From Balneolales bacterium (GTDB taxonomy: Bacteria > Bacteroidota > Rhodothermia > Balneolales > DATFMH01), in contig DATFMH010000238.1 of assembly GCA_035267045.1 (NCBI GenBank), positions 5,914 through 69,913 of the forward strand: a stretch of 64,000 bases of DNA, read 5' to 3'. This document shows, in pieces, positions 37,853 through 63,851 of the stretch (the stretch's first letter is position 1; each line of letters begins with the position of its first letter). The position numbers and the translations under genes are program-made. The notes below the pieces were generated by a model. It worked only from the letters and a program-made list of their open reading frames with translations, ran no database searches and was not told the origin of the DNA.

Positions 37853-37863
37853 AATTTTAAGAT

Positions 37864-37877: not shown

Positions 37878-38459
37878 GTACTAAGATAATAACATCCTTC
37901 AATAAATAAATGTCAAGAAAATATTTTTTTAAAAAAAAATATTAGGGCTAATCTATATAAGATAGGGTATGCTTTTAAAGCCATAATAATAAAAATTATA
38001 AGGATAATTGTATATAACTGTTTTATAAAATAATTAAGTGTAAATATATATTTGAAATCCGAGATCGGATACTCATATATAAACAATGCAGTCTATTGAC
38101 CTATCCATGTGCTATCGTTAATGTTTTTTTTAAATATATTATGTGGAGCAACTTTTTGAAAATTATTTCTCAGATTTTACGATTATCGAATTTACTGATG
38201 TGCGAATATATTTTTGCATCAACAAAAATGTAATGCTATCTAATTGGATAATGGTAAAATCCATTCCATGTAAAATTTTATATAGTGGAAGAATTAAGCA
38301 GCAATAGTCTTCATTGGATTGTTTAAAACTGCAAATGCCCATGTTTGAATTAGTGCTTCTAACATAATACAAAGTGGTGATCCAAGGAAAGAGTATAAAT
38401 AGCTGTTGAACCAATTGTTTTCGAGACGCCCAAATTAACATAGATCAGAGTTTTTTTGA

Positions 38460-38813: not shown

Positions 38814-38847
38814 ATTATTGATATCTTAACGTTATAATTATACTGAA

Positions 38848-41533: not shown

Positions 41534-41547
41534 TGTTAGCGTTAACA
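41534..41547. promoter_or_regulatory. LacI-family-type operator candidate (PUL-A)
   Basis: TGTTAGCGTTAACA, starting 14 nt after the putative -10. Confidence 0.5.
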
Positions 41548-41825: not shown

Positions 41826-44800
41826 ATGAAATTAATAAGAAAGGATTCATTCTTTTGTTTGATACGAAACCTGATTACGAAGTTAATATGGGCTCCTGTT
41901 TTTATTATTACACTTTTCATTGGAACGGTATATGCCCAAAACATGAACTCTGGTCATACAGTGAAAGGGAAAGTTGTTGATTCGGCAACTAAATCACCTT
42001 TACCCGGAGTAAATATTGTAATCAAAGGGACAATGCATGGAACATCAACCAATAAAAAAGGGAGATATAATTTAAATAACGTTCAATCATCGGACACTCT
42101 TGTTTTTTCCTTCATTGGTTATGTCACTAAATTCATACCTGTCAAAAACCGGTCAACTATTAATGTGAGGCTATCCCAAAAAACAATACACGGGAAGAAA
42201 ATGGTGGTAGTCGGTTATGGTGAGCAAAAGCAAACCAGCTTGACCAGTTCTGTTTCGAATGTGAATGTGAAAAATGTTAAGAAGCAGAATTTACCCGATG
42301 TAAGAGAATCACTACAAGGTGTATCTCCTGGTGTGACCATCCAAAAAAATGGAGGCGCTCCCGGATCGAAGAACATGCAAATTAATATACGTGGTATAAA
42401 CACGATAGGTAATACAAATCCTTTGATTCTTGTAAACGGAATCGAACAAAATTTATCTGATTTGAACCCGGATAACATCAAATCAATTTCCGTTTTAAAA
42501 GGTGCGGCAGCAACTTCTATTTATGGTTCCAGGGGGGCTAATGGCGTAATTCTTGTTACAACAAAACAGCCTCAAAAGGGTAAATTACATGTATCATATA
42601 GTGGTTATTATGGAATACAAACAGTAGCACATAAACCCCCTCAATTGGGTTTAAGAGCCTCTCTAAATCTGATCAACACTGAATACAAGAATCAGCCTAA
42701 TGGGAAACCCAAATATACGCAACAACAAATAGATCAATGGGTCAATTCAGATAACAGGTTCAAATATCCTGAACAGAATGCATTCTGGAATGTATTATTC
42801 CGCCAGGCACCGGTTGAAAATCATTCATTAACCTTTAATGGCGGTAATGGAAATATCCAGTCCCGGTTGTCACTGAACTATAATAATGAAGGCGGTATCA
42901 TCCCCAATTCGAATTCAAGAAGGTATAGTATCAATTTCGATAATAATATCGATGTTACAGACCATATAAATGTAAGTGCCAACTTATTATACCGGAATAA
43001 AATTAATGAAGAGCCTTACGGATTAAATAATGATTTTCCACAGATCTATTTTGAACTATGGCACTGGACCGAGTTCACAACTCCTCAATATCCCAATGGT
43101 ACGTTTGGATTAAGCGGGTTAAAAACGAATCCATTGATGCTTGCCGATATGTCCGGATGGCAACATCATGTCACGGATTATGCAGTTGGTAATTTAAAAG
43201 CCAATGTGGATATCCTGCCAAATCTTACTTATACCTTCCAATTTGGCGGACATATTAGTTTGGCATCGGATAAAAACTATAAAAATAATTTTACGGAACT
43301 AAATTACTACAATGGTAACCAGGTTTTTGATTACGGTTATAATAATTCAAATGTGTACAATAACCGGGACAGCAGGTGGAATATGAAAAACCTGTTGAAG
43401 TATGATCTGACCATTCATAAAAATCAGATTCATGCTTTACTGGGTTATGAACAGACCAAAGCCAATTATCACTGGTCGAATGCTTATCGGGAACAGTTTT
43501 ATAATAATCAGATAACCGCTTTAAATGCTGCTTCACAGAATAACTGGAGTAATGGAGGTAACAATAATGAGAGACGACTTCGGTCAGTCTTTGGTAGGAT
43601 CCATTATTCATATGCCAATACCTATATGATCGAAGCCAATGCCCGTTATGATGGTTCATCGAAGTTTTACGGATCAAACAACCAGTACAGTTTTTTCCCT
43701 TCTTTTTCAGCAGGTTGGAGAGTATCCAAAGAAAACTTTTGGAAACCGCTCAAATCTATTGTTAATGAGTTCAAGTTAAGGGGATCGTGGGGTAAGGCCG
43801 GTAATAATGATGTTGGGCTTTACACTTTTTTCCCGGCTCTAAATCATACAACCTATGATTTCGGCGGGAATTTAGTGGATGGTTATGTTAAAACGAACAT
43901 ATCCAATAAAAACCTGACATGGGAGACTACCACTCAAACCGATTTGGGTTTTGATGCCCAGCTATTTAATGGCCGTTTTGGTGTCACATTCGACTGGTAT
44001 AAGAAAAAAACAACCGGAATATTGTTGACTCTTCCGATTCCGGCAACTGTTGGTTTGAATCCAGCACCACAAAATGCCGGTCGTGTTGATAATAACGGTT
44101 GGGAACTATCACTGAGTTATAAAGATGTCGTTAATAAAGATCTTAATTTTTCTGTATCAGGGAATATTTCAAATAATCACAATAAGGTTATTAGCCTGGC
44201 GGGAACCGGACCCTATACGGGACGTACCGTTAAGAAAGTGGGTGTACCATTGGATTCATTCTGGGGATATAAGATCCTGGGACTCTTTCAATCCAAGCAG
44301 GAGATCGCCAATTATCCAACGTACGCTGGTAAAAACAATACTTATCCGGGCGATCTGAAATATGCCGATCTGAATGGAGACGGAAAGATCAGTTCTGCTG
44401 ATAAAACGGTTATTGGCAATGGGTTTCCCCATTATCAATTTGGTCTGAATGGCAGTGTCAATTATAAGGAATTCGACCTGAGTTTCTTCATACAAGGTGT
44501 TGGTCAGTTAACAGCTCAGGAGGGTGGACCACCACAACTCGGAGGAGCTTTTCAGGGTTTCATACTTAAAATTGCAGGTGATTACTGGACGCCCAATAAC
44601 AGGCATGCACGTTTTCCAAGGCCACAAAAATTCAGTCATAAAAACTTTCAGGAGAGTTCATGGTGGAATATCAACGCCGCTTATGTTCGGTTGAAGAATG
44701 TGCAGCTGGGTTACACTTTGCCCTCAAGAATTACCAAGAGGGTAGGAATCAGTAACCTGAGATTTTATGTAAGCGGAATGAATCTCCTGACAATTTCAAA

Positions 44801-44906
44801 TGCCTTAAAATGGGGAACAAGTCCTGAAAATCCGGCTTTTGGAAATGCCGGAGGGTACTATCCCGGTACAAAAAGCTACACAATGGGCATAAATCTGAAA
44901 TTCTAA
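41826..44906 (+). CDS. SusC/RagA-family TonB-dependent outer-membrane transporter (PUL-A)
   Basis: 1026 aa. CarboxypepD_reg-like N-domain (GKVVDSATKSPLPGVNIVIKGT), plug (VVVGYGEQK...), SusC signature NLKF C-terminus. Followed by SusD. Confidence 0.93.
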   Translation: MKLIRKDSFFCLIRNLITKLIWAPVFIITLFIGTVYAQNMNSGHTVKGKVVDSATKSPLPGVNIVIKGTMHGTSTNKKGRYNLNNVQSSDTLVFSFIGYVTKFIPVKNRSTINVRLSQKTIHGKKMVVVGYGEQKQTSLTSSVSNVNVKNVKKQNLPDVRESLQGVSPGVTIQKNGGAPGSKNMQINIRGINTIGNTNPLILVNGIEQNLSDLNPDNIKSISVLKGAAATSIYGSRGANGVILVTTKQPQKGKLHVSYSGYYGIQTVAHKPPQLGLRASLNLINTEYKNQPNGKPKYTQQQIDQWVNSDNRFKYPEQNAFWNVLFRQAPVENHSLTFNGGNGNIQSRLSLNYNNEGGIIPNSNSRRYSINFDNNIDVTDHINVSANLLYRNKINEEPYGLNNDFPQIYFELWHWTEFTTPQYPNGTFGLSGLKTNPLMLADMSGWQHHVTDYAVGNLKANVDILPNLTYTFQFGGHISLASDKNYKNNFTELNYYNGNQVFDYGYNNSNVYNNRDSRWNMKNLLKYDLTIHKNQIHALLGYEQTKANYHWSNAYREQFYNNQITALNAASQNNWSNGGNNNERRLRSVFGRIHYSYANTYMIEANARYDGSSKFYGSNNQYSFFPSFSAGWRVSKENFWKPLKSIVNEFKLRGSWGKAGNNDVGLYTFFPALNHTTYDFGGNLVDGYVKTNISNKNLTWETTTQTDLGFDAQLFNGRFGVTFDWYKKKTTGILLTLPIPATVGLNPAPQNAGRVDNNGWELSLSYKDVVNKDLNFSVSGNISNNHNKVISLAGTGPYTGRTVKKVGVPLDSFWGYKILGLFQSKQEIANYPTYAGKNNTYPGDLKYADLNGDGKISSADKTVIGNGFPHYQFGLNGSVNYKEFDLSFFIQGVGQLTAQEGGPPQLGGAFQGFILKIAGDYWTPNNRHARFPRPQKFSHKNFQESSWWNINAAYVRLKNVQLGYTLPSRITKRVGISNLRFYVSGMNLLTISNALKWGTSPENPAFGNAGGYYPGTKSYTMGINLKF

Positions 44907-44924
44907 CAGTAAAATTATTCAGTC

Positions 44925-46529
44925 ATGTATTTTAAGAAATATTCAATATTACTTATAACGATGGCACTTTGTTTAGTTGCTGTTGGTTGTAAAGATAATT
45001 TGCTTCAAACAGTACCTAACGACCGGGTGTCTACAGCTACCTATTGGAAAACCACCAATGATGCAAAATTAGCAGTAAATAACCTGTATAACTACCTCTA
45101 TAACCCTGTTGATTTAATGAATTGGGCAGCCGTCTCGGATATAGCAACCGGTAATGGCGGGTTTAATGCGATAACGCACTACGAACATGATATCGAAACT
45201 GCTGATGGCGGTTACGGCAGTTTTATATGGAATCATTCATATAAAGGTATCAGGGCATGTAATGAGTTTCTCACACACGTCCAGGATATCAAACCTCAAA
45301 GTAATGGTGATCAGAAAAAGCTTGCAGAGTACAAGGCTCAGGCCCGGTTTATGAGAGCTTATTTGTATACGTATCTGATCGAGTTTTTCGGTAATGTGCC
45401 GTTGATCAAGAAGCCCATATCGGTCAAAGATGCTAAAAAACTGACACGAACAGATAAAAGCAAGGTATGGGATTTCATTAGCAGTGAGTTGCAGGATGCT
45501 GCCGGTAATTTGCCAATAACTTATAATAACGATAATAAGGGGCGAATAACAAAAGGTGCCGCACTAGCCATGAAAGCCAGGGCGATGTTGTATGCCGGCA
45601 GGTATTCGGAAGCGGCAAAAGCGGCAAAAGCTGTAATGGATTTGGGAATCTATAGTATATATCCCAGTTATAAAGATCTGTTCAGTTATAAGGCAGAAAA
45701 TAATAGTGAAGTCATACTGGATAAAGAATTTATAAAGGATAACGAGCCACAGGGATTACTTGGTTATATTGGTCCGGGTTCCTTTCCACATGTGGGTTCC
45801 GACCAGGAAGTTGTGCCATCAGCTAATATTGTCAATGCCTACCACATGAAGAGTGGTTTACCTATAACAGATCCAAGTAGTGGTTTTGATCCGAAACATC
45901 CATATCAGAACAGGGATCCGCGGTTAGATTACTCCATATTCGTTAAAGGCGATACCCTGCCGACCGGTATAGTGTATGATCCAAGACCGGGTTTTGGAGG
46001 GGCTGATGATATCTCGAAAGGTTTCGGTACCACTCAAACCGGATTTAATATCGAAAAATATGTATCGAAACAGGATATACAAGCACCAACTAACAGTGGA
46101 TTAAATATTATCCTGATACGATATGCAGAAGTCCTTCTGACCTATGCCGAGGCTAAGATCGAGATGAACGATATTGATCAGTCAGTCTATAACGCCATAA
46201 ATAAAGTCAGACAGCGTCCGGATGTAAATATGCCCTCCATACAACCATCCAAAACGCAGGGTGAGATGAGAAAGATCGTTCGGCACGAAAGAGAAGTGGA
46301 ATTAGCCTTCGAAGGCTTCCGTTTTTTTGATATCAAAAGATGGGGAATTGCCGAAAAGGTAATGAATGGTCCGATTAAAGGTATGACCTATACTGACAAA
46401 TCCGGCAATATGCAAACTGTAGTTTACAGTGATTTCAACCGAAAATTCGTTAAACGTGATTATCTGTGGCCCATACCTCAGAAAGAGTTGGACCTGGATC
46501 CTAAAATGAACCAGAATCCGGGTTGGTAA
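44925..46529 (+). CDS. SusD/RagB-family lipoprotein (PUL-A)
   Basis: 534 aa. Lipobox LVAVGC, TPR-like SusD body, C-terminal motif PIPQKELDLDPKMNQNPGW. Confidence 0.93.
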   Translation: MYFKKYSILLITMALCLVAVGCKDNLLQTVPNDRVSTATYWKTTNDAKLAVNNLYNYLYNPVDLMNWAAVSDIATGNGGFNAITHYEHDIETADGGYGSFIWNHSYKGIRACNEFLTHVQDIKPQSNGDQKKLAEYKAQARFMRAYLYTYLIEFFGNVPLIKKPISVKDAKKLTRTDKSKVWDFISSELQDAAGNLPITYNNDNKGRITKGAALAMKARAMLYAGRYSEAAKAAKAVMDLGIYSIYPSYKDLFSYKAENNSEVILDKEFIKDNEPQGLLGYIGPGSFPHVGSDQEVVPSANIVNAYHMKSGLPITDPSSGFDPKHPYQNRDPRLDYSIFVKGDTLPTGIVYDPRPGFGGADDISKGFGTTQTGFNIEKYVSKQDIQAPTNSGLNIILIRYAEVLLTYAEAKIEMNDIDQSVYNAINKVRQRPDVNMPSIQPSKTQGEMRKIVRHEREVELAFEGFRFFDIKRWGIAEKVMNGPIKGMTYTDKSGNMQTVVYSDFNRKFVKRDYLWPIPQKELDLDPKMNQNPGW

Positions 46530-46667
46530 TATATCAAGATAACAGGGCTCTGTTGAGATGATGGAGCCTTGTTCTAACTACAGTGTTTTTAAATGGCGGA
46601 ATACAGATCACAAGTAACTACAAATAACAGCAGTTTATATAATCGAACATATAAACAGAAAGAAATT

Positions 46668-47291
46668 ATGAAACGTACGATAATAGGTTTATTGACTTTA
46701 ACTTTTTTGACTTGTTTTCATATGCAGAATGTGAAAGCGCAATCGCAAGTCTCAGGTGGTATAAAAGGAGGTGTCTCCATTTTCAATTTTACAGGAAAGG
46801 ATGTAAGCGGTAGTGGTATTTATACTGCTCTGAATGGCGGGCTCTTTGTTGATTTTTCCCCTTCACGGGTATTTAGCGTACAACCTGAATTGAATGTTAA
46901 ATCGGAAGGAGCCAATTACGGCATGATGATCAATGGATTTCCATACAGGAGAGCCAGGGTAACCTATTTGCAAGTTCCTATTCTTTTGAAATTATCGCCG
47001 TTTAATAACGGATCAAAACCGGCGGTTTCTCCCTCAATATTTGCAGGTCCGGCATTTAATGTAATGTTATTTAAACAGTTAAATGGAGAGGTCCTTCCGG
47101 ATGTAACCGGGGGATACTCAATAGATCAAAATCCTAAACAAACAGCTTACAGTGTAATAGGTGGTGTAGGTGTTACTATAAAAAACTTATATATTATTGA
47201 CCTGAGGTATGAAAAAGGTCTAACAAATGTATTTAAACAGGGTGATATCAAAAGCGGTGGCATTATGATAACAACGGGTTTTAAGTTCTAA
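46668..47291 (+). CDS. small outer-membrane beta-barrel protein (porin-family/OMP_b-brl_2-like)
   Basis: The ORF is open from 46593, but the ATG at 46668 gives a clean signal peptide, MKRTIIGLLTLTFLTCFHMQNVKAQ. Alternating beta-strand pattern with a terminal F. Confidence 0.7.
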   Translation: MKRTIIGLLTLTFLTCFHMQNVKAQSQVSGGIKGGVSIFNFTGKDVSGSGIYTALNGGLFVDFSPSRVFSVQPELNVKSEGANYGMMINGFPYRRARVTYLQVPILLKLSPFNNGSKPAVSPSIFAGPAFNVMLFKQLNGEVLPDVTGGYSIDQNPKQTAYSVIGGVGVTIKNLYIIDLRYEKGLTNVFKQGDIKSGGIMITTGFKF

Positions 47292-47834: not shown

Positions 47835-47863
47835 TTGACTCTTCAATTTAAAAAGGGTAAAAT
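47835..47863 (+). promoter_or_regulatory. candidate sigma70-type promoter for SusC-2
   Basis: TTGACT (47835-47840), 17 nt, TAAAAT (47858-47863). Confidence 0.5.
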
Positions 47864-47877
47864 AGTTGAAGCTGTGT

Positions 47878-47891
47878 TGTTAACGTTAACA
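47878..47891. promoter_or_regulatory. LacI-family-type operator candidate (PUL-B, perfect palindrome)
   Basis: TGTTAACGTTAACA sits within the 16-bp perfect palindrome ttgttaacgttaacaa. It starts 15 nt after the putative -10. Confidence 0.6.
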
Positions 47892-47976
47892 ATAATTTTT
47901 CAAAGAAGTTACTTTTGAATAAAGGTTGTGTTTAAGTTATAAGTCATTACTATCGGCTTTTTTTAATACCATTCAA

Positions 47977-47990
47977 AGATAACGTTAACA
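47977..47990. promoter_or_regulatory. second LacI-type operator candidate (PUL-B)
   Basis: AGATAACGTTAACA. The right half-site is perfect. It lies 99 bp from the first site. Confidence 0.45.
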
Positions 47991-48138: not shown

Positions 48139-51100
48139 ATGATAACTAAATGTAAGAACATTATATACGGTGCACTTCGATTCCTTACGGTAAGCTTTAT
48201 TTGTGCTATTCTTGTTTCAGTGCTTCCCTCAGGGAATGTGTACGCGCAAAATTCAGGTATGGCCATAAAGGGAAAAGTAATTGATGCACAGTCTCAAGCA
48301 CCTTTACCGGGGGTTAACATTGTTGTAAAAGGTACAACAAATGGAACTGCTACCGGTAAAAATGGGAATTATCAGTTATCCAATGTGGGCAGAAATGATA
48401 CGCTGGTTTATTCGTATATCGGATATGTAACCCAATTTATACCCGTTAACGGCAAAAGAGTTATAAATGTATCCCTGAAAACCAGGACGATAAAAGGACA
48501 GGAAATGGTAGTCGTCGGTTATGGAGTGCAGAAAAAAAGTGACCTGACAGGATCCATTACGTCTATTCAAAGTAAAGATTTTAACAAAGGTGTACACACA
48601 TCTGTAGATCAGTTACTTCAAGGTAAGGTTGCAGGGGCTAGAATTGTTGAAAACAGCGGAGAACCTGGAAGCGGTTTATCCGTCAGTATTAGGGGAGCTA
48701 GCTCGGTTAACGCTGGAACAGGCCCATTATATGTGATAGATGGAATGCCCATTGATAATTCAAGTGCTGTTAGTGGAACGGGTTCCGGTTTTGTTGGTTC
48801 CAGGTCGGGAAGTAGTCCTTTGAGCTCTCTTAATCCGAATGATATTGCATCAATAGAGGTTTTGAAAGATGCTTCAGCAACAGCAATATATGGTGCGAGG
48901 GGGGCCAATGGTGTGATCATCATTACCACCAAGCATGGTACAAAAGGGAAAATGAAGGTTGATTATAACGCTTCTGCAGGCTTTCAAAGTCCTGCCAATA
49001 CGATGAATGTTTTATCCCCCCAGCAATATAAGAGTGTAAAAAATGCCATAATCGCCGAAGGCGGGGGATCCCCGGCTGACAAAGTTGGAACATTAAGCAA
49101 TAATGGTCAGGGCACCGATTGGCAGTCTCAAATCTATAATAACCAGGCCCTGATCCAAAATCAGAATTTATCCATTTCGGCAGGTAATGATAAGACACAA
49201 TATCTCATATCCCTGAATTATACCAATCAGGATGGGATTATTAAGACCTCGGGATTTAAGAGATACGGTGGACGCGTAAATCTGACTTCTGATCTAAATG
49301 ATAAATTTCACGTTGGATTTAATTTAAGTGCAACCTATTCAAAGAATAATTTTGCACCTGTAGGATATGGTCTCAATGAATATGCAGGTGCGATGTATAC
49401 CGCAATAAACTGGGACCCCAGTAAACCTGTATATGATTCCAATGGTAATTATTATGTAGATCCCACACTTTCCATGGACAATCCTTTAGCAATCATTCAT
49501 GGTAGTAATTCTTATAAGAATACCTATCGCTATTTTGGTACTGCGTATGGTACGTATGATATTCTGCCGTATTTAAGTGTTAAAATTAATGTGGGTGGTG
49601 ATGTAACAAGTCAACGAAGAGATACCTATATCAATCGTCTGACCAAAATTGGCCGGGCCACAGGTGGTGAAGCCACGATTTTACAGGGACAATTATCCAA
49701 TTATCTGATCGAAGGTACTACTACTTTTCATAAGTCATTTGGTCCAAATGACTTAAAAGTGCTTGCTGGTATTACAACTCAAAAGTTCCTGACTGACCGA
49801 TCGAGCGAATCTGCAAGTGGATTCTCATCCGATGCCACAACTACCAACAATATCGGCTTAGGTGATCAATTAACTTATGGTATTGGCAGTAGTAAATACG
49901 GTTCACGATTATTGTCATATATTGGCAGATTGAATTATACCTTTCATGATAAATACCTATTAACGGCAACTTTCAGAGCGGATGGATCGTCCAAATTTGG
50001 CTCGAATCATAAGTATGGTTACTTCCCTTCATTTGCACTGGGTTGGAAACTTAAACAGGAAAAATTCCTGAAAAATGTGGATTTCATAAGCAATATGAAA
50101 TTGCGTGCAAGCTGGGGACAAACAGGTAATGATGAAATCGGTAATTTCCTGTCAATGACGACATTTGGCTCGGGAGCAAATGCCATATGGAATAATAATC
50201 CAACTGTCGGTTTAAGTCCGACCCGTTTGCCTAATCCCAATATACAATGGGAAACCACAAATCAGACGGATATTGGCTTAGACTTCGGTTTCTTTAATGA
50301 CAGGCTTAATGGTAGTATCGATTATTACCAAAAAAAGACATTTAATATGCTGTTGAACTTACCGGTTCCGAAATCTTCGGGTTTTGGTGTTCAAACTCAA
50401 AATATTGGAAGTATTAAAAACTCGGGATTTGAATTGTCTTTAACTTCTTATAATATCAGCAGTAGAAATCTGCAGTGGAATACCAATCTGAATGTTTCAA
50501 CCTTAAAGAATGAAGTAACAAATTTGGGTGGTATCCCACAAATTATAAGTGGCGGTGCTGGCTTTACGAATCAAATATTTGTAACTCAGGTCGGCTTGCC
50601 ACTGCGTAGTTATTATGGCTATAAAGTAATCGGGGTATGGCAAAAAGGCGATGACTTCTCTAAAACTAAAGACAATGTTCATCCCGGAGATTTAAAATAT
50701 CTGGATGTTAATGGTGATGGAACCGTTAATGCTGCCGACAGGGTACCGCTGGGAAGTTCTTTCCCCAAATATACGTTCTCATTAGATAATACCTTCTCTT
50801 ACAAAAACTTCTCACTCGATGTGTTTATTGAAGGTGTACAGGGGATTAAAATGTTGAACAACAACCTGGTTGATACCTATTTTCCGGTTCAATTCAGAAG
50901 AAATGTTATTGCAAAACCATACTTAAACAGATGGACACCTAGTAATCCTTCTAATAAATATCCTTCATTTGTAACACCATTAGACCAGGGACAAAAAGGG
51001 GTTAATTCTTACACGGTTGAGGATGCGTCTTATGTAAGACTGAAATCCGTACAACTCAGTTATACAGTGCCACGAGAAGCCCTGCATAACGTGATTAATT

Positions 51101-51261
51101 CTTTAGAAATCTCCTTGACGGGTGAAAATCTCTATACACTGACCAATTATCAGGGAATAGATCCGGCTGTCAATTCAAATGGCAATGCCAATGCGCGAAT
51201 CGATTACAACACATATCCGCTTCCCAGAACATTTACACTTGGTCTGAAATTAGGATTTTAA
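48139..51261 (+). CDS. SusC/RagA-family TonB-dependent outer-membrane transporter (PUL-B)
   Basis: 1040 aa. CarboxypepD_reg-like domain, plug (VVVGYGVQKKSDLTGS), SusC-type C-terminus ...GLKLGF. Confidence 0.93.
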   Translation: MITKCKNIIYGALRFLTVSFICAILVSVLPSGNVYAQNSGMAIKGKVIDAQSQAPLPGVNIVVKGTTNGTATGKNGNYQLSNVGRNDTLVYSYIGYVTQFIPVNGKRVINVSLKTRTIKGQEMVVVGYGVQKKSDLTGSITSIQSKDFNKGVHTSVDQLLQGKVAGARIVENSGEPGSGLSVSIRGASSVNAGTGPLYVIDGMPIDNSSAVSGTGSGFVGSRSGSSPLSSLNPNDIASIEVLKDASATAIYGARGANGVIIITTKHGTKGKMKVDYNASAGFQSPANTMNVLSPQQYKSVKNAIIAEGGGSPADKVGTLSNNGQGTDWQSQIYNNQALIQNQNLSISAGNDKTQYLISLNYTNQDGIIKTSGFKRYGGRVNLTSDLNDKFHVGFNLSATYSKNNFAPVGYGLNEYAGAMYTAINWDPSKPVYDSNGNYYVDPTLSMDNPLAIIHGSNSYKNTYRYFGTAYGTYDILPYLSVKINVGGDVTSQRRDTYINRLTKIGRATGGEATILQGQLSNYLIEGTTTFHKSFGPNDLKVLAGITTQKFLTDRSSESASGFSSDATTTNNIGLGDQLTYGIGSSKYGSRLLSYIGRLNYTFHDKYLLTATFRADGSSKFGSNHKYGYFPSFALGWKLKQEKFLKNVDFISNMKLRASWGQTGNDEIGNFLSMTTFGSGANAIWNNNPTVGLSPTRLPNPNIQWETTNQTDIGLDFGFFNDRLNGSIDYYQKKTFNMLLNLPVPKSSGFGVQTQNIGSIKNSGFELSLTSYNISSRNLQWNTNLNVSTLKNEVTNLGGIPQIISGGAGFTNQIFVTQVGLPLRSYYGYKVIGVWQKGDDFSKTKDNVHPGDLKYLDVNGDGTVNAADRVPLGSSFPKYTFSLDNTFSYKNFSLDVFIEGVQGIKMLNNNLVDTYFPVQFRRNVIAKPYLNRWTPSNPSNKYPSFVTPLDQGQKGVNSYTVEDASYVRLKSVQLSYTVPREALHNVINSLEISLTGENLYTLTNYQGIDPAVNSNGNANARIDYNTYPLPRTFTLGLKLGF

Positions 51262-51287
51262 ATAAAAAATAAATTAAAGGTGATAAG

Positions 51288-52766
51288 ATGAGTTCTATTA
51301 ATCGAAGTGAATTTTTGAAATTACTAGCAGGGGGAGGATTTGGGATGTTCTTCTTTAGCAGTTGCAAGAATATACTACAGGAACAGCCGTATTCCCAGAT
51401 TGCACCGGGAAACCTGCTTACATCACAAGATGGAGTTACGGCCGTGCTAGCTTCTGCTTATGGTAATGCCAATGCTATATCGAAATATTTTGTGAATGAT
51501 TTAAGTGAATGGTGCACCGATTTATCATGGCAAACTAACGGCGGTGAAAACAGGGAAGCTGTTCTTTATATTAATTTTAACTGGGATCCTTCGGCCGGTG
51601 GCTTAAATAATTATTATAATAATTATTATGGCGCTATTCGTGATGCGAATACTATTCTGGATAATAAAGACCAGATGAGCAAGATTGCTAATGCCGATGA
51701 ATTAATTGCAGAAGCACGTTTTGTCAGAGCATTATCCTATCAATATTTGCACTTGATGTTTGGCCCGACGCCATTACGGAAAAGTAACAACGACAAGTTG
51801 GATTTGCCCAAGGCTTCTGAGAGCGACATGCTTAGCTTTATTGAATCGGAATATAAAGCGGTTATATCGACTCTTCCGGATCCAGGTAAAGAAGCGGCTT
51901 ATGGGCGGGCGACCAGTGGTGCAGCCCGCGGTTTGCTATGTAAGTTTTATTTGAATACCAAACAATGGCAAAAGGCAGCAGATATGGCCAAGGAAATTAT
52001 AAATATGGGCTATTATAATCTGTTCCCAAACTTTATGGATATGCTTAAAGTATCGAATGAAGGCAACCGTGAAATGATTTGGGTATTTCCATATTCAGCT
52101 AAAGGTCATGGTGGCCAAGAGGCAAATCTTATTGCTAACGGCACGTTTCCACCTGGATTCCAAAAATGGCCCAGAACGGGATTGGTGATGCAAAGTAATT
52201 GGAATAACTGGGCTTCCCAATATCGTCTTCGTGATGCATTTTATAATTCATTTGATCCAAACGATGATCGAATAAAACCCATCATGACTGAATATATAAA
52301 TGCCAAAGGCAATACGATTAACCTGTTAAATACCAAGGATGATACACGATCATTCCGGTACTGGCCTGATCCGAATGCCCAGGGTAACTTTCATGGAAAT
52401 GATATACCCGCTGTTCGTTATGCCGATATCCTTTTAACCAGGGCTGAAGCTCTCAATGAACTAAATGGTCCCAATCAAGAATCTATTGATCTGATTAACC
52501 AGGTCCGGACAAGGGCAGGTATGAGTAACTTGCAATTGTCCGGATTCTCATCCAAAGATGCTCTTCGGTCTCATATCCTGTTAGAACGGGGATGGGAGTT
52601 TTATGACGAAGGTAAAAGGAGAGAAGATCTTATACGGATGGGAAAATTCATTGAATATGCACATAATCGTGGTGTCAGTCATGCTGATTCCCATCAAGTA
52701 TTATACCCGATACCGCAGCCTGCAATAGACGCAAATCCTAATTTAAAACAAAACCCAGGGTATTAA
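51288..52766 (+). CDS. SusD/RagB-family lipoprotein (PUL-B)
   Basis: 492 aa. Lipobox FFSSC and C-terminal YPIPQPAIDANPNLKQNPGY. The N-terminus is unusual (NRSEFLKLLAGGG). Confidence 0.9.
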   Translation: MSSINRSEFLKLLAGGGFGMFFFSSCKNILQEQPYSQIAPGNLLTSQDGVTAVLASAYGNANAISKYFVNDLSEWCTDLSWQTNGGENREAVLYINFNWDPSAGGLNNYYNNYYGAIRDANTILDNKDQMSKIANADELIAEARFVRALSYQYLHLMFGPTPLRKSNNDKLDLPKASESDMLSFIESEYKAVISTLPDPGKEAAYGRATSGAARGLLCKFYLNTKQWQKAADMAKEIINMGYYNLFPNFMDMLKVSNEGNREMIWVFPYSAKGHGGQEANLIANGTFPPGFQKWPRTGLVMQSNWNNWASQYRLRDAFYNSFDPNDDRIKPIMTEYINAKGNTINLLNTKDDTRSFRYWPDPNAQGNFHGNDIPAVRYADILLTRAEALNELNGPNQESIDLINQVRTRAGMSNLQLSGFSSKDALRSHILLERGWEFYDEGKRREDLIRMGKFIEYAHNRGVSHADSHQVLYPIPQPAIDANPNLKQNPGY

Positions 52767-52809
52767 GAGGCGCTAAACCTCTTGTTAAGACAAAATCATA
52801 ATAACCCTT

Positions 52810-52844
52810 GAGGCGAACTTTGGTATGTAAACAAAGTTCGCCTC
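52810..52844 (+). terminator. strong hairpin between susD-2 and the glycosidase genes
   Basis: 12-bp perfect stem: gaggcgaacttt (52810-52821) pairs with aaagttcgcctc (52833-52844). Followed by tgattt. Confidence 0.5.
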
Positions 52845-52962
52845 TGATTTATGTCGTTTAGCTCAACAGGTCAGGATTCATCGAAGTCTGAAGATTCCTA
52901 TACCTGGAAGGCTGGTATTGAATGAAAAATGGTGGCTAATATATCTAGTAAATGAGAAAAAA

Positions 52963-55242
52963 ATGAGAAAAAGTATCGTAATAGGAAGCGCCTTAATTAT
53001 TGTAATTGCTGGTTTGGGACTGATGGGTTGTTCCAATACGAGTAATAAAAAAAGTGTTGAACCTGTAAATGTATTTATCAAGGTGAATCCGGCGTTGGCT
53101 GGCTCACAGCCATTAAGTGCTAATATGTTTGCAAAGTTTTTTGAGTATAACGGGTGCGATGCTTATCCCGGAATTTATGCAGATCATCTTGCCAATGGCT
53201 CATTTGAAATCTGGAATAAATCAGGTAACAGGACAGCAGTTCTTTACAATAATACAAAAAAATATAAAGGTATAGCCTATCCCTGGGAACCGGTGACTAA
53301 TTCACCACATGTATCATATCAACAGGTTCCAGGCGGAATCAATGGGCGTAAACCGGAACCGGATCTTGATCATGGAAGTGAAATAATACAGGCGGAACGG
53401 CCTAAACCGTCAGGCATTAAACGGCCACGATATGAACGAATATCTGTGAAAAATGGGAGTGGGGGTGTATTACAGAGAACAGCCTTACCCGATCACCGCA
53501 CATCATCATACATTGTAAAGTTTTCAGTACGAGGTAAGATAAATGGTCAGTTTGATGTTGCATTAACAGATCAATATGGAAGTGTTCTTGCCCAAAAAAC
53601 AGTTTCGGTATCCCGTAGCTGGAAAAGACAAAAAATAAAGCTTCATCTGAAAAAATTAAGTACCCACAGGTACCAGGGTTCTCCATTCGGAGAGTATGCT
53701 CTTGTTTTCCGGGTAAAGGGAAAGGGACATGTGGACCTTGACTGGACAATGCTTATGAGTGGTGATGCGGTTGATGGTATGTTTAATCCGACAACGATCA
53801 AGCTTCTGAAAAAATTTGATGTAACAGGTATCCGGTGGCCGGGTGGTAATTTTGCCAGCCAATATCATTGGAAAGATGGAGTAGGGCCATTGAAAAATCG
53901 TCCGATTGTGCCCAATGGCAACTGGGGCGGATTTGAGCGTAACTACCTGGGTACGGATGAATTCCTGGAGTTTTGTAAAATTGCGGGAATTAAACCCATT
54001 ATTACTGTTGCTTCCTGGTCAGGTATTTCCCCCAAAGAAATTGCCGATTGGGTTCAGTATGTCAACGGCGATGCTTCAACCAAATATGGCAGGTTACGGG
54101 CCCGGTATGGACACCCTAAACCATGGAATGTTAAACACTGGCAGATAGGAAACGAAGTATGGGGTAATTATCAAATCGGACATACAGATGCCAAAAAATA
54201 TGCCGGGAGATATAAAAAAATATACGAGGCAATGAAAAAGGCCGATCCTGACATCATAATTGATGCAACAGGTATTGATCCATATTACACGGAATATAAA
54301 GATGGATCTTATAAAAACCGGCAACCGGGTGTACCTCCGGTTTGGAATAAAATCCTTTTTAAAAATGATGCGAGTTTGGTACATGGAGTGGACATCCATC
54401 GATATACGAGGGGACTCACAACCGATAAGGCAAGGTTAAAATGGTTGAAAACGAATCACTCCGATCCAATTGGTTATGATGAAGCTATGGTTGGTTTTCC
54501 TACCGAATATGAGCAATTATTACATGGCTTAAGAAAAGAAGCGGCTCAATACGGGATAAAAGATCTCAGGATAAATGTGGGAGAATGGAACCTGAGCGCA
54601 AGAGTAAACAAAGGTTGGCCAAGAATCGATTATCCTACAATGGCTCATGCTGTGTATATGGCTGGAATATTTAATGATTATATCAGGCTGGGCCATATCG
54701 TCAGTTATATGAGAGATAATACGTTATACTATCGACCATATCCGGTTGATATGCGCCCGTTATACCCCGGACTCTATACTGAAAAGTTTTATGCCGAACC
54801 ATTTATGAATCGCGATATCATTTGGCACAATCTGCCAGTGAAAGTCAACAGCCCAACTTTTACCATTCCGAAAACAGGCCTTCGAATTCATAAGATGAAA
54901 GGAGTGCCTTATGTTGATGTGGCAAGCATTATATCCCCAAAAGGAAGAAATGTAATTGTGTTTGCTGTAAATCGAAATTTGAAAAAAACATACAAGGTTG
55001 CCTTTAATCTTCAGAATAAGAATTCGGATAATATTTTGAAATTAAAAAACGGTAAGGTACAGGTAATTATTCAGACCCCGATTGATAATAATCCGTTTAA
55101 AAGGCAAACAAGCTGGAAGGGCCCGAATAGTTTTGTCTTAAAAAAAGAATCTGTTAACCCGGATCGAAATGGGATCATACATTTAAAGATGCCACCTGCT
55201 TCAATAGTAAGAATGAAATTGCAGATCATCTCGGGAAAGTAA
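52963..55242 (+). CDS. GH51-type alpha-L-arabinofuranosidase with N-terminal extension
   Basis: The ORF is open from 52918, but the ATG at 52963 gives a lipoprotein signal, MRKSIVIGSALIIVIAGLGLMGC. GH51 motifs IRWPGGNFASQYHWKDGVGP, acid/base WQIGNEVWG, nucleophile region NVGEWNL. Confidence 0.82.
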   Translation: MRKSIVIGSALIIVIAGLGLMGCSNTSNKKSVEPVNVFIKVNPALAGSQPLSANMFAKFFEYNGCDAYPGIYADHLANGSFEIWNKSGNRTAVLYNNTKKYKGIAYPWEPVTNSPHVSYQQVPGGINGRKPEPDLDHGSEIIQAERPKPSGIKRPRYERISVKNGSGGVLQRTALPDHRTSSYIVKFSVRGKINGQFDVALTDQYGSVLAQKTVSVSRSWKRQKIKLHLKKLSTHRYQGSPFGEYALVFRVKGKGHVDLDWTMLMSGDAVDGMFNPTTIKLLKKFDVTGIRWPGGNFASQYHWKDGVGPLKNRPIVPNGNWGGFERNYLGTDEFLEFCKIAGIKPIITVASWSGISPKEIADWVQYVNGDASTKYGRLRARYGHPKPWNVKHWQIGNEVWGNYQIGHTDAKKYAGRYKKIYEAMKKADPDIIIDATGIDPYYTEYKDGSYKNRQPGVPPVWNKILFKNDASLVHGVDIHRYTRGLTTDKARLKWLKTNHSDPIGYDEAMVGFPTEYEQLLHGLRKEAAQYGIKDLRINVGEWNLSARVNKGWPRIDYPTMAHAVYMAGIFNDYIRLGHIVSYMRDNTLYYRPYPVDMRPLYPGLYTEKFYAEPFMNRDIIWHNLPVKVNSPTFTIPKTGLRIHKMKGVPYVDVASIISPKGRNVIVFAVNRNLKKTYKVAFNLQNKNSDNILKLKNGKVQVIIQTPIDNNPFKRQTSWKGPNSFVLKKESVNPDRNGIIHLKMPPASIVRMKLQIISGK

Positions 55243-55291
55243 ATCCAAATAACGGTATAAATATATCATTAGGTTAAAGAAGAGATAGTTA

Positions 55292-56572
55292 ATGAGTTCT
55301 ATAAATCGAATCCTTATTGTAAGTGTCATAACTGTATTGGCATTAATCGGTTGTAAGAAATCGGTCAGTAATGTGAATGGGAATACCAATAATAACTGTA
55401 ATTCGGCGAATGTTGATACAACGAATGTGACTGGTATCGTAGATTCATTAACAAACGGACAACAAAGTCTGGGTGTTAACTATAACGGACAGTTCGATCA
55501 TCTCAATATCAATGATTTGCACAGAACCAGGACTAAATGGGTAAGAGGATTTATTGATTTCTTTCAATTATACAGTAATCCGGATACCCTTAAAACAGAC
55601 CCACAAATCATTAATTATCTGAAACTGAATGATAATGGCTTCAATACGATATTAAATATTAAATGGAATTTTCATAATAAAGATTTCCCTTCAAACAGTA
55701 GTGCTACTATGAGAAATTATGAGAGTTTCCTGAAAAAATTGTTGGATAAGGTTTGGTCGAAGACAGATATAATAGTTGTAGGGAATGAGCCTTTCATAGA
55801 AGCAAAAAATTCTGAAAAAGGTACGGCTCTTGTGCAATTTTACGAGGAAATAGCTAAATATATTCGAGCTTATGAGACTGGAGCTCTTGATAATAATGGA
55901 TGTACAAATGGAAATAATTCAACGAGTCATGTATCAGTAAAGCCCGTTTTTATAGGAGCCTTTAATAACCTTTACGAAAATTCATGGCAAACAAGTGCTG
56001 TGGTTCAACTGCTCAATTTTACTAAAAGTGAGAACTGGATTGCAGGGATCGATATGCATATTCATCATAGCAGCTTCAACCAGTTGAGCCAGGCTTTGAA
56101 TTATGTAAACGGCAAGATCAGAAGTGATCAAAAAATAATCATTACTGAATTTTCTATGGTGAAATACTTTCAATCGTACATGAACAATACTATTCCTTCA
56201 TCGTTTGCCGGCAAATACGGCTATGATTCTACAATGGTGAATTATCAGTACATCAACCAGACCTTGCACAATCCGGTAAGCCGGAAGGAATGGGTGGGTT
56301 TTTTGAGTAACAGCAACTGGTTTGAAAGTAAAAAGACGTATGTCAGCGATGCTTTTAACTTATTTACGACTTATCGGAAATTTGCGATAGCTACGTATGG
56401 TTTGCGTCAAAGTTACCCGTATAACAAGGATTTTACTTCGAATACCATGCCCTGGATACTGAACAGTATTTATGCCAACAGAACAGTCAGACCTGATTCA
56501 ACTGGACAAAATCAGTTTAATTATGCATGGATTCAGGATTTCCTTGCCGTTCAAAATGGAACGTATAATTAA
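55292..56572 (+). CDS. lipoprotein, putative clan GH-A (beta/alpha)8 glycosidase of unassigned family
   Basis: 426 aa. Lipobox LALIGC. Strand-like segments in TIM-barrel order, with IIVVGNEPF (Asn-Glu at a beta-4-like position) and KIIITEFS (Glu at a beta-7-like position), plus GIDMHIHH. Confidence 0.5.
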   Translation: MSSINRILIVSVITVLALIGCKKSVSNVNGNTNNNCNSANVDTTNVTGIVDSLTNGQQSLGVNYNGQFDHLNINDLHRTRTKWVRGFIDFFQLYSNPDTLKTDPQIINYLKLNDNGFNTILNIKWNFHNKDFPSNSSATMRNYESFLKKLLDKVWSKTDIIVVGNEPFIEAKNSEKGTALVQFYEEIAKYIRAYETGALDNNGCTNGNNSTSHVSVKPVFIGAFNNLYENSWQTSAVVQLLNFTKSENWIAGIDMHIHHSSFNQLSQALNYVNGKIRSDQKIIITEFSMVKYFQSYMNNTIPSSFAGKYGYDSTMVNYQYINQTLHNPVSRKEWVGFLSNSNWFESKKTYVSDAFNLFTTYRKFAIATYGLRQSYPYNKDFTSNTMPWILNSIYANRTVRPDSTGQNQFNYAWIQDFLAVQNGTYN

Positions 56573-56664
56573 GAGTTTTAATTGAAAATGTAATTACCGT
56601 TCATATCACGGTTGCTACATTTTAAAACAGGGAAATAGTTTAATAATCACAAAATAGTAGGATT

Positions 56665-57780: not shown

Positions 57781-57814
57781 TAAGAAGATTTATGAGTTAG
57801 CTAAACATGGTTAT

Positions 57815-57837
57815 CCGGCATCAAAACCTGATGCCGG
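57815..57837 (+). terminator. hairpin after the GH43 gene
   Basis: ccggcatc (57815-57822) pairs with gatgccgg (57830-57837). 8-bp perfect stem. Confidence 0.4.
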
Positions 57838-58162
57838 TACCTGTTTAAATCTCACCGGATCTATTGATTTAAATTCATAATACCCAATTTTATTTTATCA
57901 TTATAACTGCATTTTGATCCGGTTACCTGTAAAGTTCGTGATAGGTGATTACTATACTATATTATCATTTGATTGATCATATTTATCAATTGGCAGTAAT
58001 TTATTGCTCATTAACATATCCGGTTTAATTTATATCGAAGTAGATTAGGCAGGGTGAGATGAATCCTGCTCACAATAATGATTATCTGGGTTGCAACACC
58101 GGTAATATATCAAATCAATTAAGAACAAGATTATTAACAGTCAACAGTTCAATTCCTATAAC

Positions 58163-63831: not shown

Positions 63832-63851
63832 AATACAAAAATTAAACTGCC

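What the first reader, a model, noticed from the sequence alone, without database searches (positions are those of the whole stretch)
47835..47990. Shared CG-centred 14-bp palindrome (TGTTAnCGTTAACA) links the gal operon and all three SusC/SusD loci to an unseen LacI-type regulator
The perfect palindrome TGTTAACGTTAACA (47878-47891, within a 16-bp perfect palindrome) begins 15 nt after a near-consensus TTGACT-17-TAAAAT promoter in front of SusC-2. A second site, AGATAACGTTAACA, lies 99 bp downstream. Close variants occur upstream of SusC-1 (41534-41547 TGTTAGCGTTAACA, 14 nt after a TTGACA-17-TACTCT promoter). They also occur upstream of SusC-3 (60642-60655 TGTTATCGATATCA) and as a tandem pair upstream of the galactose operon (37839-37852, 37864-37877). 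All fit the LacI/GalR-family operator pattern TGnnAnCGnTnnCA. I did not find the motif in the other intergenic regions of the window that I scanned by eye. No LacI-family gene, and no HTCS, SusR or ECF-sigma/anti-sigma gene, is present in the 64 kb. So these PULs appear to be wired as a repressor regulon together with galactose catabolism. That differs from the regulator types usually co-encoded with Bacteroides PULs.
Basis: partly seen in the sequence, partly recalled or inferred. Interest (0 to 1): 0.6.

Follow-up and report, generated by a model that had tools for sequence, protein, structure and literature searches.

The report
LacI-type operator regulon linking gal genes and PULs
A 14-bp DNA palindrome repeated in front of the galactose genes and three sugar-uptake gene clusters is very probably the docking site of one LacI-type repressor; its gene lies elsewhere in the same genome, which makes this a tidy but conventional sugar regulon.

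Summary
All sites are at the stated coordinates. TGTTAnCGnTAACA with up to 2 mismatches occurs 13 times against 2.9 expected (0 of 100 shuffles). A weight matrix separates nine sites (20-26 bits), all intergenic and all in the carbohydrate part, from everything else (12 bits or less).

The organism is a Balneolales MAG, not a Bacteroides. In a sister species the same gal operon is directly preceded by a LacI-family gene, with the tandem operator pair conserved between them. LacI orthologues of at least 60% identity from five further lineages carry the motif beside them. Nineteen loci with 30-39% paralogues have none beside the gene; one has a single distant match.

The "unseen" regulator was found: HKJ47380.1 (338 aa), in the same NCBI accession run as the window's proteins and in the same five samples. 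Its DNA-reading head matches the sister repressor.

Nine of 11 independent operators lie 34-43 nt downstream of a TTGAC/T -35-like element (P about 1e-11), which fits repression. An AraC-family regulator gene just past the window end also carries two sites.

Verdict: a new member of a known kind. The closest analogue is the XylR/xyl-box regulon of Xanthomonas. Binding, effector and genome-wide extent remain untested.

The parts
47878..47891 (.). Operator in front of SusC-2 (TGTTAACGTTAACA; 16-bp perfect palindrome 47877-47892)
   Evidence: 23.4 bits; 14 nt after TTGACT-17-TAAAAT
47977..47990 (.). Second operator in the SusC-2 leader (AGATAACGTTAACA), 99 bp downstream of the first
   Evidence: 21.1 bits
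47835..47863 (+). Sigma-70-like promoter TTGACT-17-TAAAAT for PUL-2
   Evidence: The geometry is shared by 9 of 11 independent operators.
41534..41547 (.). Operator in front of SusC-1 (TGTTAGCGTTAACA)
   Evidence: 21.6 bits
41492..41520 (+). Sigma-70-like promoter TTGACA-17-TACTCT for PUL-1
60642..60655 (.). Operator in front of SusC-3 (TGTTATCGATATCA), centre 93.5 nt before the ATG
   Evidence: (21.6 bits). Also present in L001 and L002 from other samples.
37864..37877 (.). gal operon operator, promoter-distal copy of the tandem pair (TGTTATCGTTAACA)
   Evidence: Conserved in the sister species at L010 9703.
37839..37852 (.). gal operon operator, second copy 25 bp closer to the operon (TGGTAACGATAACA). 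Its half-site doubles as a TTGTTA -35-like hexamer, followed after 16 nt by TATAAT.
   Evidence: Conserved at L010 9731.
37886..37916 (-). Sigma-70-like promoter TTGACA-19-TATTAT for the gal operon, ending 8 nt before the distal operator
34328..34341 (.). Weak intragenic copy inside galK (TGTTGGCGTTAACA); a candidate auxiliary operator
   Evidence: 11.2 bits. It sits at the same CDS position in L010 and L025 although the peptide there varies.
38824..38837 (.). Weak copy (TCTTAACGTTATAA) 24 bp before the GtaA-like gene; membership is uncertain
   Evidence: 12.1 bits
32344..37564 (-). Regulated gal operon: mutarotase-like gene, Na+/solute symporter, 88-aa membrane ORF, galK, galT
   Evidence: Pfam. 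Same gene order in L010, L025 and L026.
41826..47291 (+). PUL-1: SusC-1, SusD-1, OMP beta-barrel protein
   Evidence: Pfam
48139..60160 (+). PUL-2: SusC-2, SusD-2, arabinofuranosidase-like protein, hypothetical protein, GH43, GH127
   Evidence: Pfam; NCBIfam
60742..64000 (+). PUL-3: SusC-3 and the start of SusD-3. Beyond the window it continues with an OMP gene, an AraC-family regulator, a GH5-like gene and a sulfatase, with three more operators.

Best explanation
The 14-bp CG-centred palindrome TGTTAnCGnTAACA is the operator of a single LacI/GalR-family repressor. In this Balneolales genome the repressor is HKJ47380.1 (P0241, 338 aa). It is encoded on another contig, in a locus of sulfatase, anSME, FGE and GH63-like genes.

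Proposed mechanism:
- A dimer binds the palindrome, with the hinge-helix leucine (AKSL) inserting at the central CpG.
- The operators sit immediately downstream of, or inside, sigma-70-type promoters, so bound repressor blocks initiation.
- The regulon covers the Leloir genes and their symporter, three SusC/SusD pairs with their arabinofuranosidase-like, GH43 and GH127 genes, an AraC-family regulator and a sulfatase.
- Extra copies (25-bp tandem, +99 bp, +127 bp, inside galK) probably act as auxiliary operators.
- The inducer is most likely galactose or a galactoside released from the glycan.

Shown here: the motif, its enrichment, its conservation, its linkage to this LacI orthologue group, and the presence of the orthologue in the same MAG.

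Inferred: binding, the sign of regulation, the effector, and the substrate (an arabinogalactan-like, possibly sulfated glycan).
For: Motif enrichment and exclusively intergenic location.

The sister species (gal proteins 65-91% identical) has LacI, then the tandem operators, then the same gal operon. The DNA around the operators is 75% identical.

LacI orthologues with the motif beside them:
- L025 (71% identity): sites before the GH35-GH53/LacI divergent pair, before the gal operon and inside galK
- L026 (66%): a perfect palindrome 78 bp after the LacI gene
- Aliifodinibius L024 (65%)
- L030 (66%, GC 58%): LacI, operator, galK
- L031 (60%)

Six of 8 orthologue loci carry a site, against 1 of 19 paralogue loci (Fisher P = 6e-4).

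The recognition helix MTVSRALNN and the hinge PNxxAKSL are shared by the orthologues and differ in the paralogues.

P0241 is 86% identical to the sister repressor. Over residues 1-60 there are five substitutions, none in the recognition helix or hinge. It has Pfam LacI plus Peripla_BP domains, and its closest solved relatives are CcpA, RbsR and PurR.

Its accession HKJ47380.1 lies in the same run as the window's HKJ47396, 47402, 47405, 47415 and 47427. It occurs in exactly the five samples that hold window-organism contigs.

A TTGA[CT] pentamer lies 34-43 nt upstream of 9 of 11 independent operators, against a 4% background (P = 1.4e-11).

Even-length palindromes with a central CG are the hallmark of LacI-family sites: 1173 of 1303 TFs (PMC4052901).
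Against: - There is no binding or expression data.
- There is no operator near the LacI gene itself, whereas 72% of LacI-family TFs are autoregulated (PMC4052901).
- Assignment of HKJ47380.1 to this genome rests on MAG binning, the accession run and sample co-occurrence. It is not on the same contig as the window.
- The Gracilimonas orthologue locus shows no site.
- Sites lie 94-307 nt before the start codons, further than the 30-140 nt typical for the family.
- The sigma-70-like promoter scan as a whole is at chance level (43 found, 44.9 expected).
- Bacteroidetes-type -7 boxes (TAnnTTTG at 47910 and 41589) would place the operators upstream of the promoters instead.
Confidence: 0.8

Rival explanations
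1. The same LacI-family protein binds the sites but acts as an activator or dual regulator. This would follow if the organism used Bacteroidetes-type -33/-7 promoters located downstream of the operators.
For: Perfect TAnnTTTG boxes lie downstream of the operators at 47910 (SusC-2), 41589 (SusC-1) and 37748 (gal, minus strand). A TACTTTTG box also precedes the Gracilimonas LacI gene.
Against: The distance from operator to these boxes is inconsistent (25, 48 and 91-129 nt). By contrast, the distance to an upstream TTGAC/T hexamer is conserved in 9 of 11 cases across lineages. The sulfatase operator lies in the spacer of TTGAAT-18-TATTAT. Sugar-responsive LacI-family members are predominantly repressors (established knowledge).
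Confidence: 0.1
2. The motif is bound by the AraC-family regulator encoded just beyond the window end (L001 14946-15857), which would then be autoregulated and control the PULs.
For: The best-scoring site, plus a second one, lie upstream of that gene. It is the only regulator gene physically inside the PUL region.
Against: AraC-type DNA-binding domains read long asymmetric sites of about 17-20 bp per monomer, not a compact 14-bp palindrome with an invariant CpG centre (established knowledge). In six other lineages the motif travels with the LacI orthologue, without such an AraC gene. The AraC gene next to the Gracilimonas LacI is not orthologous: 32% identity, in the HTH region only.
Confidence: 0.04
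3. The sites belong to a Crp/Fnr-type global sugar regulator, analogous to BT4338 (Crp) of Bacteroides.
For: Bacteroides has a predicted global sugar regulon with a palindrome containing TGTT...AACA (wwwTATGTTnTAnAACATAwww) upstream of several sugar operons (PMC3878776).
Against: The spacing differs: TGTT-N4-AACA there, TGTT-N6-AACA here. The centre here is an invariant CG in 9 of 9 sites, whereas Crp-type sites have unconserved centres. No Crp gene is linked to the motif in any locus examined, while a LacI orthologue is.
Confidence: 0.03
4. The sites arise by chance in AT-rich intergenic DNA, are copies of one duplicated promoter segment, or form an RNA hairpin.
For: The genome is 39% GC and the motif is AT-rich. 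The palindromes can fold.
Against: No shuffle reaches the observed count. The site flanks are unrelated. The motif is conserved in a 58% GC genome. Single-site hairpins are weak, at -2.3 and -7.6 kcal/mol with flanks. No Rfam family is found in the window.
Confidence: 0.01

Closest known systems
XylR / xyl-box regulon of Xanthomonas (and Caulobacter)
   Same: A LacI-family repressor acts through a 14-bp CG-centred palindrome (xyl-box TGGTAGCGCTAACA, PMC10380989). That sequence is one or two bases from the sites here. It controls xylan-degradation and xylose-utilisation genes (PMC10380989). That the sites are scattered over several loci which include TonB-dependent transporter genes is from my own knowledge of Dejean et al. 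2013.
   Different: The effector and pathway differ: xylose and xylan there, presumably galactose and an arabinogalactan-like glycan here. The phylum differs (Proteobacteria against Balneolales). The targets here are true SusC/SusD pairs. Orthology of the repressors was not tested.
E. coli GalR/GalS-gal regulon
   Same: A LacI-family repressor of the galactose genes galK and galT that uses two operators, one of them intragenic (galOI). Here the operators are a tandem pair plus a conserved copy inside galK.
   Different: P0241 does not reach the NCBIfam GalR or GalS cut-offs (187 and 168 bits, against 557 and 555). The regulon extends to outer-membrane glycan-import loci. The operators are 14-bp even palindromes.
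CcpA-cre (Bacillus)
   Same: CcpA is the closest solved structure to P0241 (3oqo, E = 3e-59). The cre consensus TGWAANCGNTNWCA (from my own knowledge) is almost matched by TGTTAACGTTAACA. CcpA controls many operons and is encoded apart from its targets.
   Different: CcpA needs HPr-Ser-P as co-repressor and mediates global catabolite control. Nothing here suggests that. The orthologue group here is tied specifically to gal genes.
Bacteroides PUL regulators (HTCS, SusR, ECF sigma/anti-sigma) and the predicted BT4338 Crp-type sugar regulon
   Same: They control SusC/SusD loci. BT4338 is a trans-acting regulator with a shared palindrome before several sugar operons (PMC3878776).
   Different: None of those regulator types is encoded in the window. 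The motif architecture and the TF family differ. In Aliifodinibius the homologous PUL keeps an ECF sigma/FecR pair, with the LacI operator in front of the sigma gene.

Membership tests
LacI/GalR-family operator and regulon | Even-length inverted repeat with a conserved central CG | tested here: met
   The 14-bp palindrome has C and G invariant at the centre in 9 of 9 strong sites. This is the family hallmark according to PMC4052901.
LacI/GalR-family operator and regulon | A LacI-family TF gene (HTH_LacI plus periplasmic-binding-protein fold) is genomically linked to the motif across related genomes | tested here: met
   Linked in L010/L028, L025, L026, L024, L030 and L031. The counts are 6 of 8 orthologue loci against 1 of 19 paralogue loci.
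LacI/GalR-family operator and regulon | A cognate LacI-family TF is present in the same genome | tested here: met
   P0241 = HKJ47380.1 lies in the same accession run as the window proteins and in the same five samples. It is on a different contig, so the assignment rests on binning and co-occurrence.
LacI/GalR-family operator and regulon | DNA-reading head and hinge-helix leucine are conserved with orthologues that sit next to the motif | tested here: met
   Over residues 1-60, P0241 differs from the sister repressor at five positions, none in the recognition helix or hinge. MTVSRALNN and AKSL are shared by the orthologues and differ in the paralogues.
LacI/GalR-family operator and regulon | Operator overlaps or directly follows the promoter (repressor geometry) | tested here: met
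   A TTGA[CT] pentamer lies 34-43 nt upstream of 9 of 11 independent operators, P = 1.4e-11. The promoters are predicted, not mapped.
LacI/GalR-family operator and regulon | Direct, effector-sensitive binding of the protein to the site | not testable with these tools
   This needs EMSA or DAP-seq, with and without galactose.
LacI/GalR-family operator and regulon | Autoregulatory site at the TF gene (common in the family, not obligatory) | tested here: not met
   No site of 8 bits or more lies near the LacI gene in L017-L021, L029 or L051. L025 does have a site upstream of its LacI gene.
Canonical Bacteroides-type PUL regulation (HTCS, SusR, ECF/anti-sigma encoded in the locus) | One of these regulator genes is adjacent to the SusC/SusD pair | tested here: not met
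   No such Pfam domain is found in any window ORF. Only an AraC-family gene follows PUL-3, beyond the window end.
Crp-type global sugar regulon (BT4338-like) | A palindrome with TGTT-N4-AACA spacing (wwwTATGTTnTAnAACATAwww) and a linked or autoregulated Crp-family gene | tested here: not met
   The spacing here is N6 with an invariant CG (against PMC3878776). No Crp gene is present in any locus.

The most novel reading that the evidence does not exclude
In this Balneolales lineage, an ancestrally local repressor encoded next to the gal operon has been unlinked from its operon and has lost autoregulation. It has been promoted to master regulator of a multi-locus glycan-foraging programme. That programme comprises three SusC/SusD PULs, sulfatases and a subordinate AraC-family regulator, which together form a repressor-to-activator cascade. 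A conserved operator inside galK would take part in looping.
Probability: 0.35. Interest if true: 0.45.

Novelty: new member of a known kind. Interest (0 to 1): 0.35.

Why it matters
The result gives a concrete, testable regulon for an uncultured, poorly studied group (Balneolales). It comprises one identified repressor, a sharply defined operator, and at least six or seven target transcription units. These couple outer-membrane glycan import to galactose catabolism.

It shows that SusC/SusD loci outside the Bacteroidia can be wired to a classical cytoplasmic sugar-sensing repressor, rather than to HTCS, SusR or ECF systems. The operator can therefore be used to predict functionally linked PULs in metagenome-assembled genomes.

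Conceptually it extends a well-known mechanism rather than revealing a new one.

Tried and rejected
1. The genome-collection scan with the GtaA-like protein returned only one relative, a Chitinophagaceae MAG at 61% identity (L003). It has no motif and a different context.
2. A search for a decayed LacI gene in the 1283-bp gap upstream of the gal operon found nothing. tblastn with the sister LacI gave no hit better than E = 6.
3. The P0122 and P0241 contigs were tested for overlap with the window or with L001. There is none.
4. The Gracilimonas mengyeensis orthologue locus has no convincing site within 10 kb either side.
5. A full-text search for the exact motif found only unrelated primer and cloning sequences.
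6. My recollection that BT4338 is a LacI-family protein was wrong. It is Crp-family.
7. The generic sigma-70 promoter scan is at chance level overall. Only the conserved offset analysis was informative.
8. Rfam found no family in the window. Hairpin folding of single sites is weak.
9. The AraC gene of L001 is not orthologous to the AraC gene beside the Gracilimonas LacI.
10. The first window ORF (112-1155) is not on record, so the left flank could not be extended.

Full report
**Observation**

- TGTTAACGTTAACA at 47878-47891, inside the 16-bp perfect palindrome 47877-47892
- AGATAACGTTAACA at 47977-47990
- TGTTAGCGTTAACA at 41534-41547
- TGTTATCGATATCA at 60642-60655
- the tandem pair TGGTAACGATAACA (37839-37852) and TGTTATCGTTAACA (37864-37877)

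With up to two mismatches, TGTTANCGNTAACA occurs 13 times in the window against 2.93 +/- 1.74 expected. None of 100 dinucleotide-preserving shuffles reaches 13.

I built a weight matrix from the strong sites and scanned the window plus a 6.7-kb extension. Nine sites score 20.5-25.9 bits. All nine lie in the 13% of the sequence that is non-coding, and all lie at 37.8-69.3 kb. The next best scores are 12.1 bits (38824, 24 bp before the GtaA-like gene) and 11.2 bits (34328, inside galK).

The flanks of the sites do not align with each other, so they are independent occurrences and not copies of one duplicated promoter.

**Gene content**

- galT, galK, an SSF symporter and a mutarotase-like gene on the minus strand (32344-37564)
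- a GtaA-like protein
- SusC/SusD/OMP (PUL-1)
- SusC/SusD with an arabinofuranosidase-like protein, a hypothetical protein, GH43 and GH127 (PUL-2)
- SusC-3 (PUL-3)
- housekeeping genes at 1-31 kb

No LacI, HTCS, SusR or ECF/anti-sigma gene is present in the window.

**Extension beyond the window**

A metagenome contig that is 99.75% identical to the window (L001) extends 6.7 kb past its end. It carries SusD-3, an OMP gene, an AraC-family regulator, a GH5-like gene and a sulfatase.

It adds three more strong sites. Two lie upstream of the AraC gene (GGTTAGCGTTAACA and TGATAACGTTAACA, the latter the best-scoring site of all). One lies upstream of the sulfatase (CGTTAACGTTATCA).

The regulon therefore covers at least six or seven transcription units in about 38 kb.

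**Whose genome**

The only hit of the genome-collection scan was a Chitinophagaceae MAG at 61% identity, without the motif. That was misleading.

The window's own proteins are on record as NCBI HKJ47396.1, HKJ47402.1, HKJ47405.1, HKJ47415.1 and HKJ47427.1, all named 'MAG TPA... [Balneolales bacterium]'. The organism is therefore a Balneolales bacterium, not a Bacteroides.

**Who binds the motif**

The closest relative of the first gal-operon gene (65% identity) comes from a second Balneolales MAG, GCA_035267005.1. Its gal proteins are 65-91% identical to those of the window.

In that relative the same operon (mutarotase-like gene, SSF, small ORF, galK, galT) is directly preceded by a LacI-family gene of 344 aa with PF00356 and Peripla_BP domains. 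The tandem operator pair lies between the two: TGTTAACGATAACA at L010 9703 and TGTTATCGTTATCA at 9731. The surrounding DNA is 75% identical to window 37808-37936.

In the window, the equivalent position is a 1283-bp gene-poor gap. It holds no detectable LacI remnant.

Orthologues of this LacI are highly conserved, at 60-70% identity even in Ignavibacteria- and Calditrichaeota-labelled MAGs. I fetched loci for several of them:
- L025 (71%): one site between the divergent GH35-GH53 genes and the LacI gene, one between LacI and the gal operon, and a perfect copy inside galK
- L026 (66%): the perfect palindrome TGTTAACGTTAACA 78 bp after the LacI gene, in front of an M24 peptidase, mutarotase-like, SSF, galK operon
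- Aliifodinibius L024 (65%): TGTTAGCGATAACA in front of an ECF-sigma/FecR/SusC/SusD locus, whose SusC is 52% identical to SusC-2
- L030 (66%, GC 58%): LacI, then TGTTAGCGCTAACA, then galK
- L031 (60%): TGTTACCGTTAACA 92 bp after the LacI gene

Nineteen loci holding LacI paralogues of 30-39% identity have no such site, apart from one distant match in L039. The counts are 6 of 8 orthologue loci against 1 of 19 paralogue loci (Fisher P = 6e-4).

The orthologues share the recognition helix MTVSRALNN and the hinge PNxxAKSL. The paralogues differ at both.

Even-length palindromes with a central CG are the hallmark of LacI-family sites, seen for 1173 of 1303 TFs (PMC4052901).

**The unseen regulator**

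An 86%-identical orthologue (P0122 and P0241, 338 aa) lies in a different context, with no gal operon and no operator nearby. Its neighbours are a radical-SAM anSME, a GH63-like gene, an FGE-sulfatase gene and a sulfatase.

P0241 is NCBI HKJ47380.1, 'LacI family DNA-binding transcriptional regulator [Balneolales bacterium]'. That accession lies in the same run as the window's proteins. The sister species' proteins are in the HKJ30xxx run.

P0241 is found in ERZ27257072, ERZ27257102, ERZ27257104, SRR5210466 and SRR6056298. Those are exactly the samples in which window-organism contigs occur.

Over residues 1-60, which contain the helix-turn-helix and the hinge, it differs from the sister species' repressor at five positions. 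None is in the recognition helix or the hinge. It is a full-length LacI/GalR-family protein. Its closest solved relatives are CcpA, RbsR and PurR, and it reaches no NCBIfam equivalog cut-off.

The link is by MAG membership and co-occurrence, not by physical contiguity.

**How it most likely works**

I oriented each independent operator towards its gene and looked at the sequence upstream. A TTGA[CT] -35-like pentamer starts 34-43 nt upstream of 9 of 11 operators. These are gal, SusC-1, SusC-2 and AraC in the window, plus L025, L026, Aliifodinibius, L030 and L031. The background frequency in the window's intergenic DNA is 4% (binomial P = 1.4e-11).

A -10-like hexamer follows after 16-19 nt, and the operator begins 5-14 nt after that. 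It therefore covers roughly +1 to +25.

The sulfatase operator lies in the spacer of TTGAAT-18-TATTAT. The second gal operator supplies the TTGTTA -35-like hexamer of a TTGTTA-16-TATAAT element, an arrangement that is conserved in the sister species.

This is classical repressor geometry. The support comes from the conserved offset, not from the generic scan, which is at chance level over 37.4-48.2 kb (43 found, 44.9 expected).

The second copies probably act as auxiliary operators. They lie 25 bp away (gal), 99 bp away (SusC-2) and 127 bp away (AraC), and there is one inside galK.

The galK copy sits at nucleotide 239-242 of the CDS in three species. The encoded peptide there is variable ([39 protein letters not shown]), which suggests selection on the DNA rather than on the protein.

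The effector is inferred. The orthologue group is tied to galK, galT and beta-galactosidase/galactanase genes across lineages, so galactose or a galactoside is the likeliest inducer. The enzyme set points to an arabinogalactan-like, possibly sulfated, glycan: GH43, GH127, an arabinofuranosidase-like protein, and sulfatases at both the PUL-3 and LacI loci. None of this was tested.

**Rivals**

- Activator reading. Perfect Bacteroidetes-type -7 boxes (TAnnTTTG) lie downstream of three operators. Their distance from the operators is inconsistent, so I give this about 0.1.
- AraC-family protein as the binder. A compact CG-centred palindrome does not suit that family, and the motif follows the LacI orthologue in lineages that lack such a gene. 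I give this about 0.04.
- Crp-type regulator like BT4338. Its predicted motif is wwwTATGTTnTAnAACATAwww (PMC3878776). It has different spacing and no conserved centre. I give this about 0.03.
- Chance, segment duplication or RNA structure. These are rejected.

**Comparison with what is known**

The closest analogue is the XylR/xyl-box system. There a LacI-family repressor uses a 14-bp palindrome (TGGTAGCGCTAACA, PMC10380989) to control xylan-degradation and xylose-utilisation genes in Xanthomonas. That these loci include TonB-dependent transporter genes is from my own knowledge of Dejean et al. 2013. The operator differs from the sites here by one or two bases.

E. coli GalR (a gal operon with an intragenic operator) and CcpA-cre are further analogues.

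Relative to the LacI-family survey (PMC4052901), three features are somewhat unusual:
- The regulator is unlinked from its targets and apparently not autoregulated, whereas 72% of the family are autoregulated.
- The regulon is large for the family, in which 93% of regulons have 20 genes or fewer. I count about 19-21 genes already in this 38-kb stretch.
- The sites lie 94-307 nt upstream of the start codons, further than the usual 30-140 nt.

None of this departs from the known mechanism.

**Verdict**

The predicted regulator is identified by inference.

It is a new member of a known kind: a GalR-like LacI-family regulon that has absorbed SusC/SusD loci in an uncultured Balneolales bacterium. 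It is useful for annotation and directly testable, but not surprising to a specialist. Interest is 0.35.

Noticed in passing
window 34328-34341; L010 13223-13236; L025 9950-9963: galK carries a motif copy at nt 239-242 of its CDS in three species, and the copy in L025 is perfect. The encoded peptide there is variable, which suggests a conserved intragenic auxiliary operator like galOI or lacO2.
   Followed up: partly
window 37565-38847: A 1283-bp gene-poor gap lies between the gal operon and the GtaA-like gene. Its only sizeable ORF is an unannotated one of 92 aa. The sister species has its LacI gene directly upstream of the gal operon, but no LacI remnant is detectable here.
   Followed up: yes
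L001 14946-15857 (about 66652-67563 in window numbering, beyond the window end): An AraC-family regulator (cupin plus HTH_18 domains) lies behind PUL-3 and is preceded by two strong operators 127 bp apart. This may be a LacI-to-AraC regulatory cascade.
   Followed up: partly
window 34591-34857 (minus strand): A small ORF of 67-88 aa lies between the SSF symporter and galK in the window, L010, L025 and L026. The window copy (88 aa) has two hydrophobic stretches that look like transmembrane segments. It might be an accessory subunit of the transporter.
   Followed up: no
L024 12927-19787 (Aliifodinibius sp.): A SusC 52% identical to window SusC-2 lies behind an ECF sigma/FecR pair. The LacI operator is in front of the sigma gene and a LacI orthologue is 2 kb upstream. 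This is the same type of PUL with two regulatory layers.
   Followed up: partly
window 41400-41435: A 16-bp-stem hairpin, flanked by T and A runs, follows the GtaA-like gene. It looks like a bidirectional intrinsic terminator that separates that gene from the SusC-1 promoter.
   Followed up: no
window 47910-47917, 41589-41596, 37741-37748 (minus strand): Perfect Bacteroidetes-type -7 boxes (TAnnTTTG; two of them read TACTTTTG) occur downstream of operators, alongside classical TTGACA-type elements. Which promoter type Balneolales use is not settled.
   Followed up: partly
window 41548-41825, 47892-48138, 37565-37838: Leaders of about 250-300 nt lie between the operators and the start codons of SusC-1, SusC-2 and the gal operon. 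No Rfam family matches them.
   Followed up: partly
L019 1-729 (JGI 3300026126): The sequence upstream of the LacI gene differs from all other contigs that carry this gene. This indicates either a strain-level rearrangement or an assembly junction.
   Followed up: no
window 38848-41337: The only hit for the GtaA-like protein in the species-representative genome collection is a Chitinophagaceae MAG at 61% identity, although the genome is Balneolales. The cause could be horizontal transfer or sparse sampling of the lineage.
   Followed up: no
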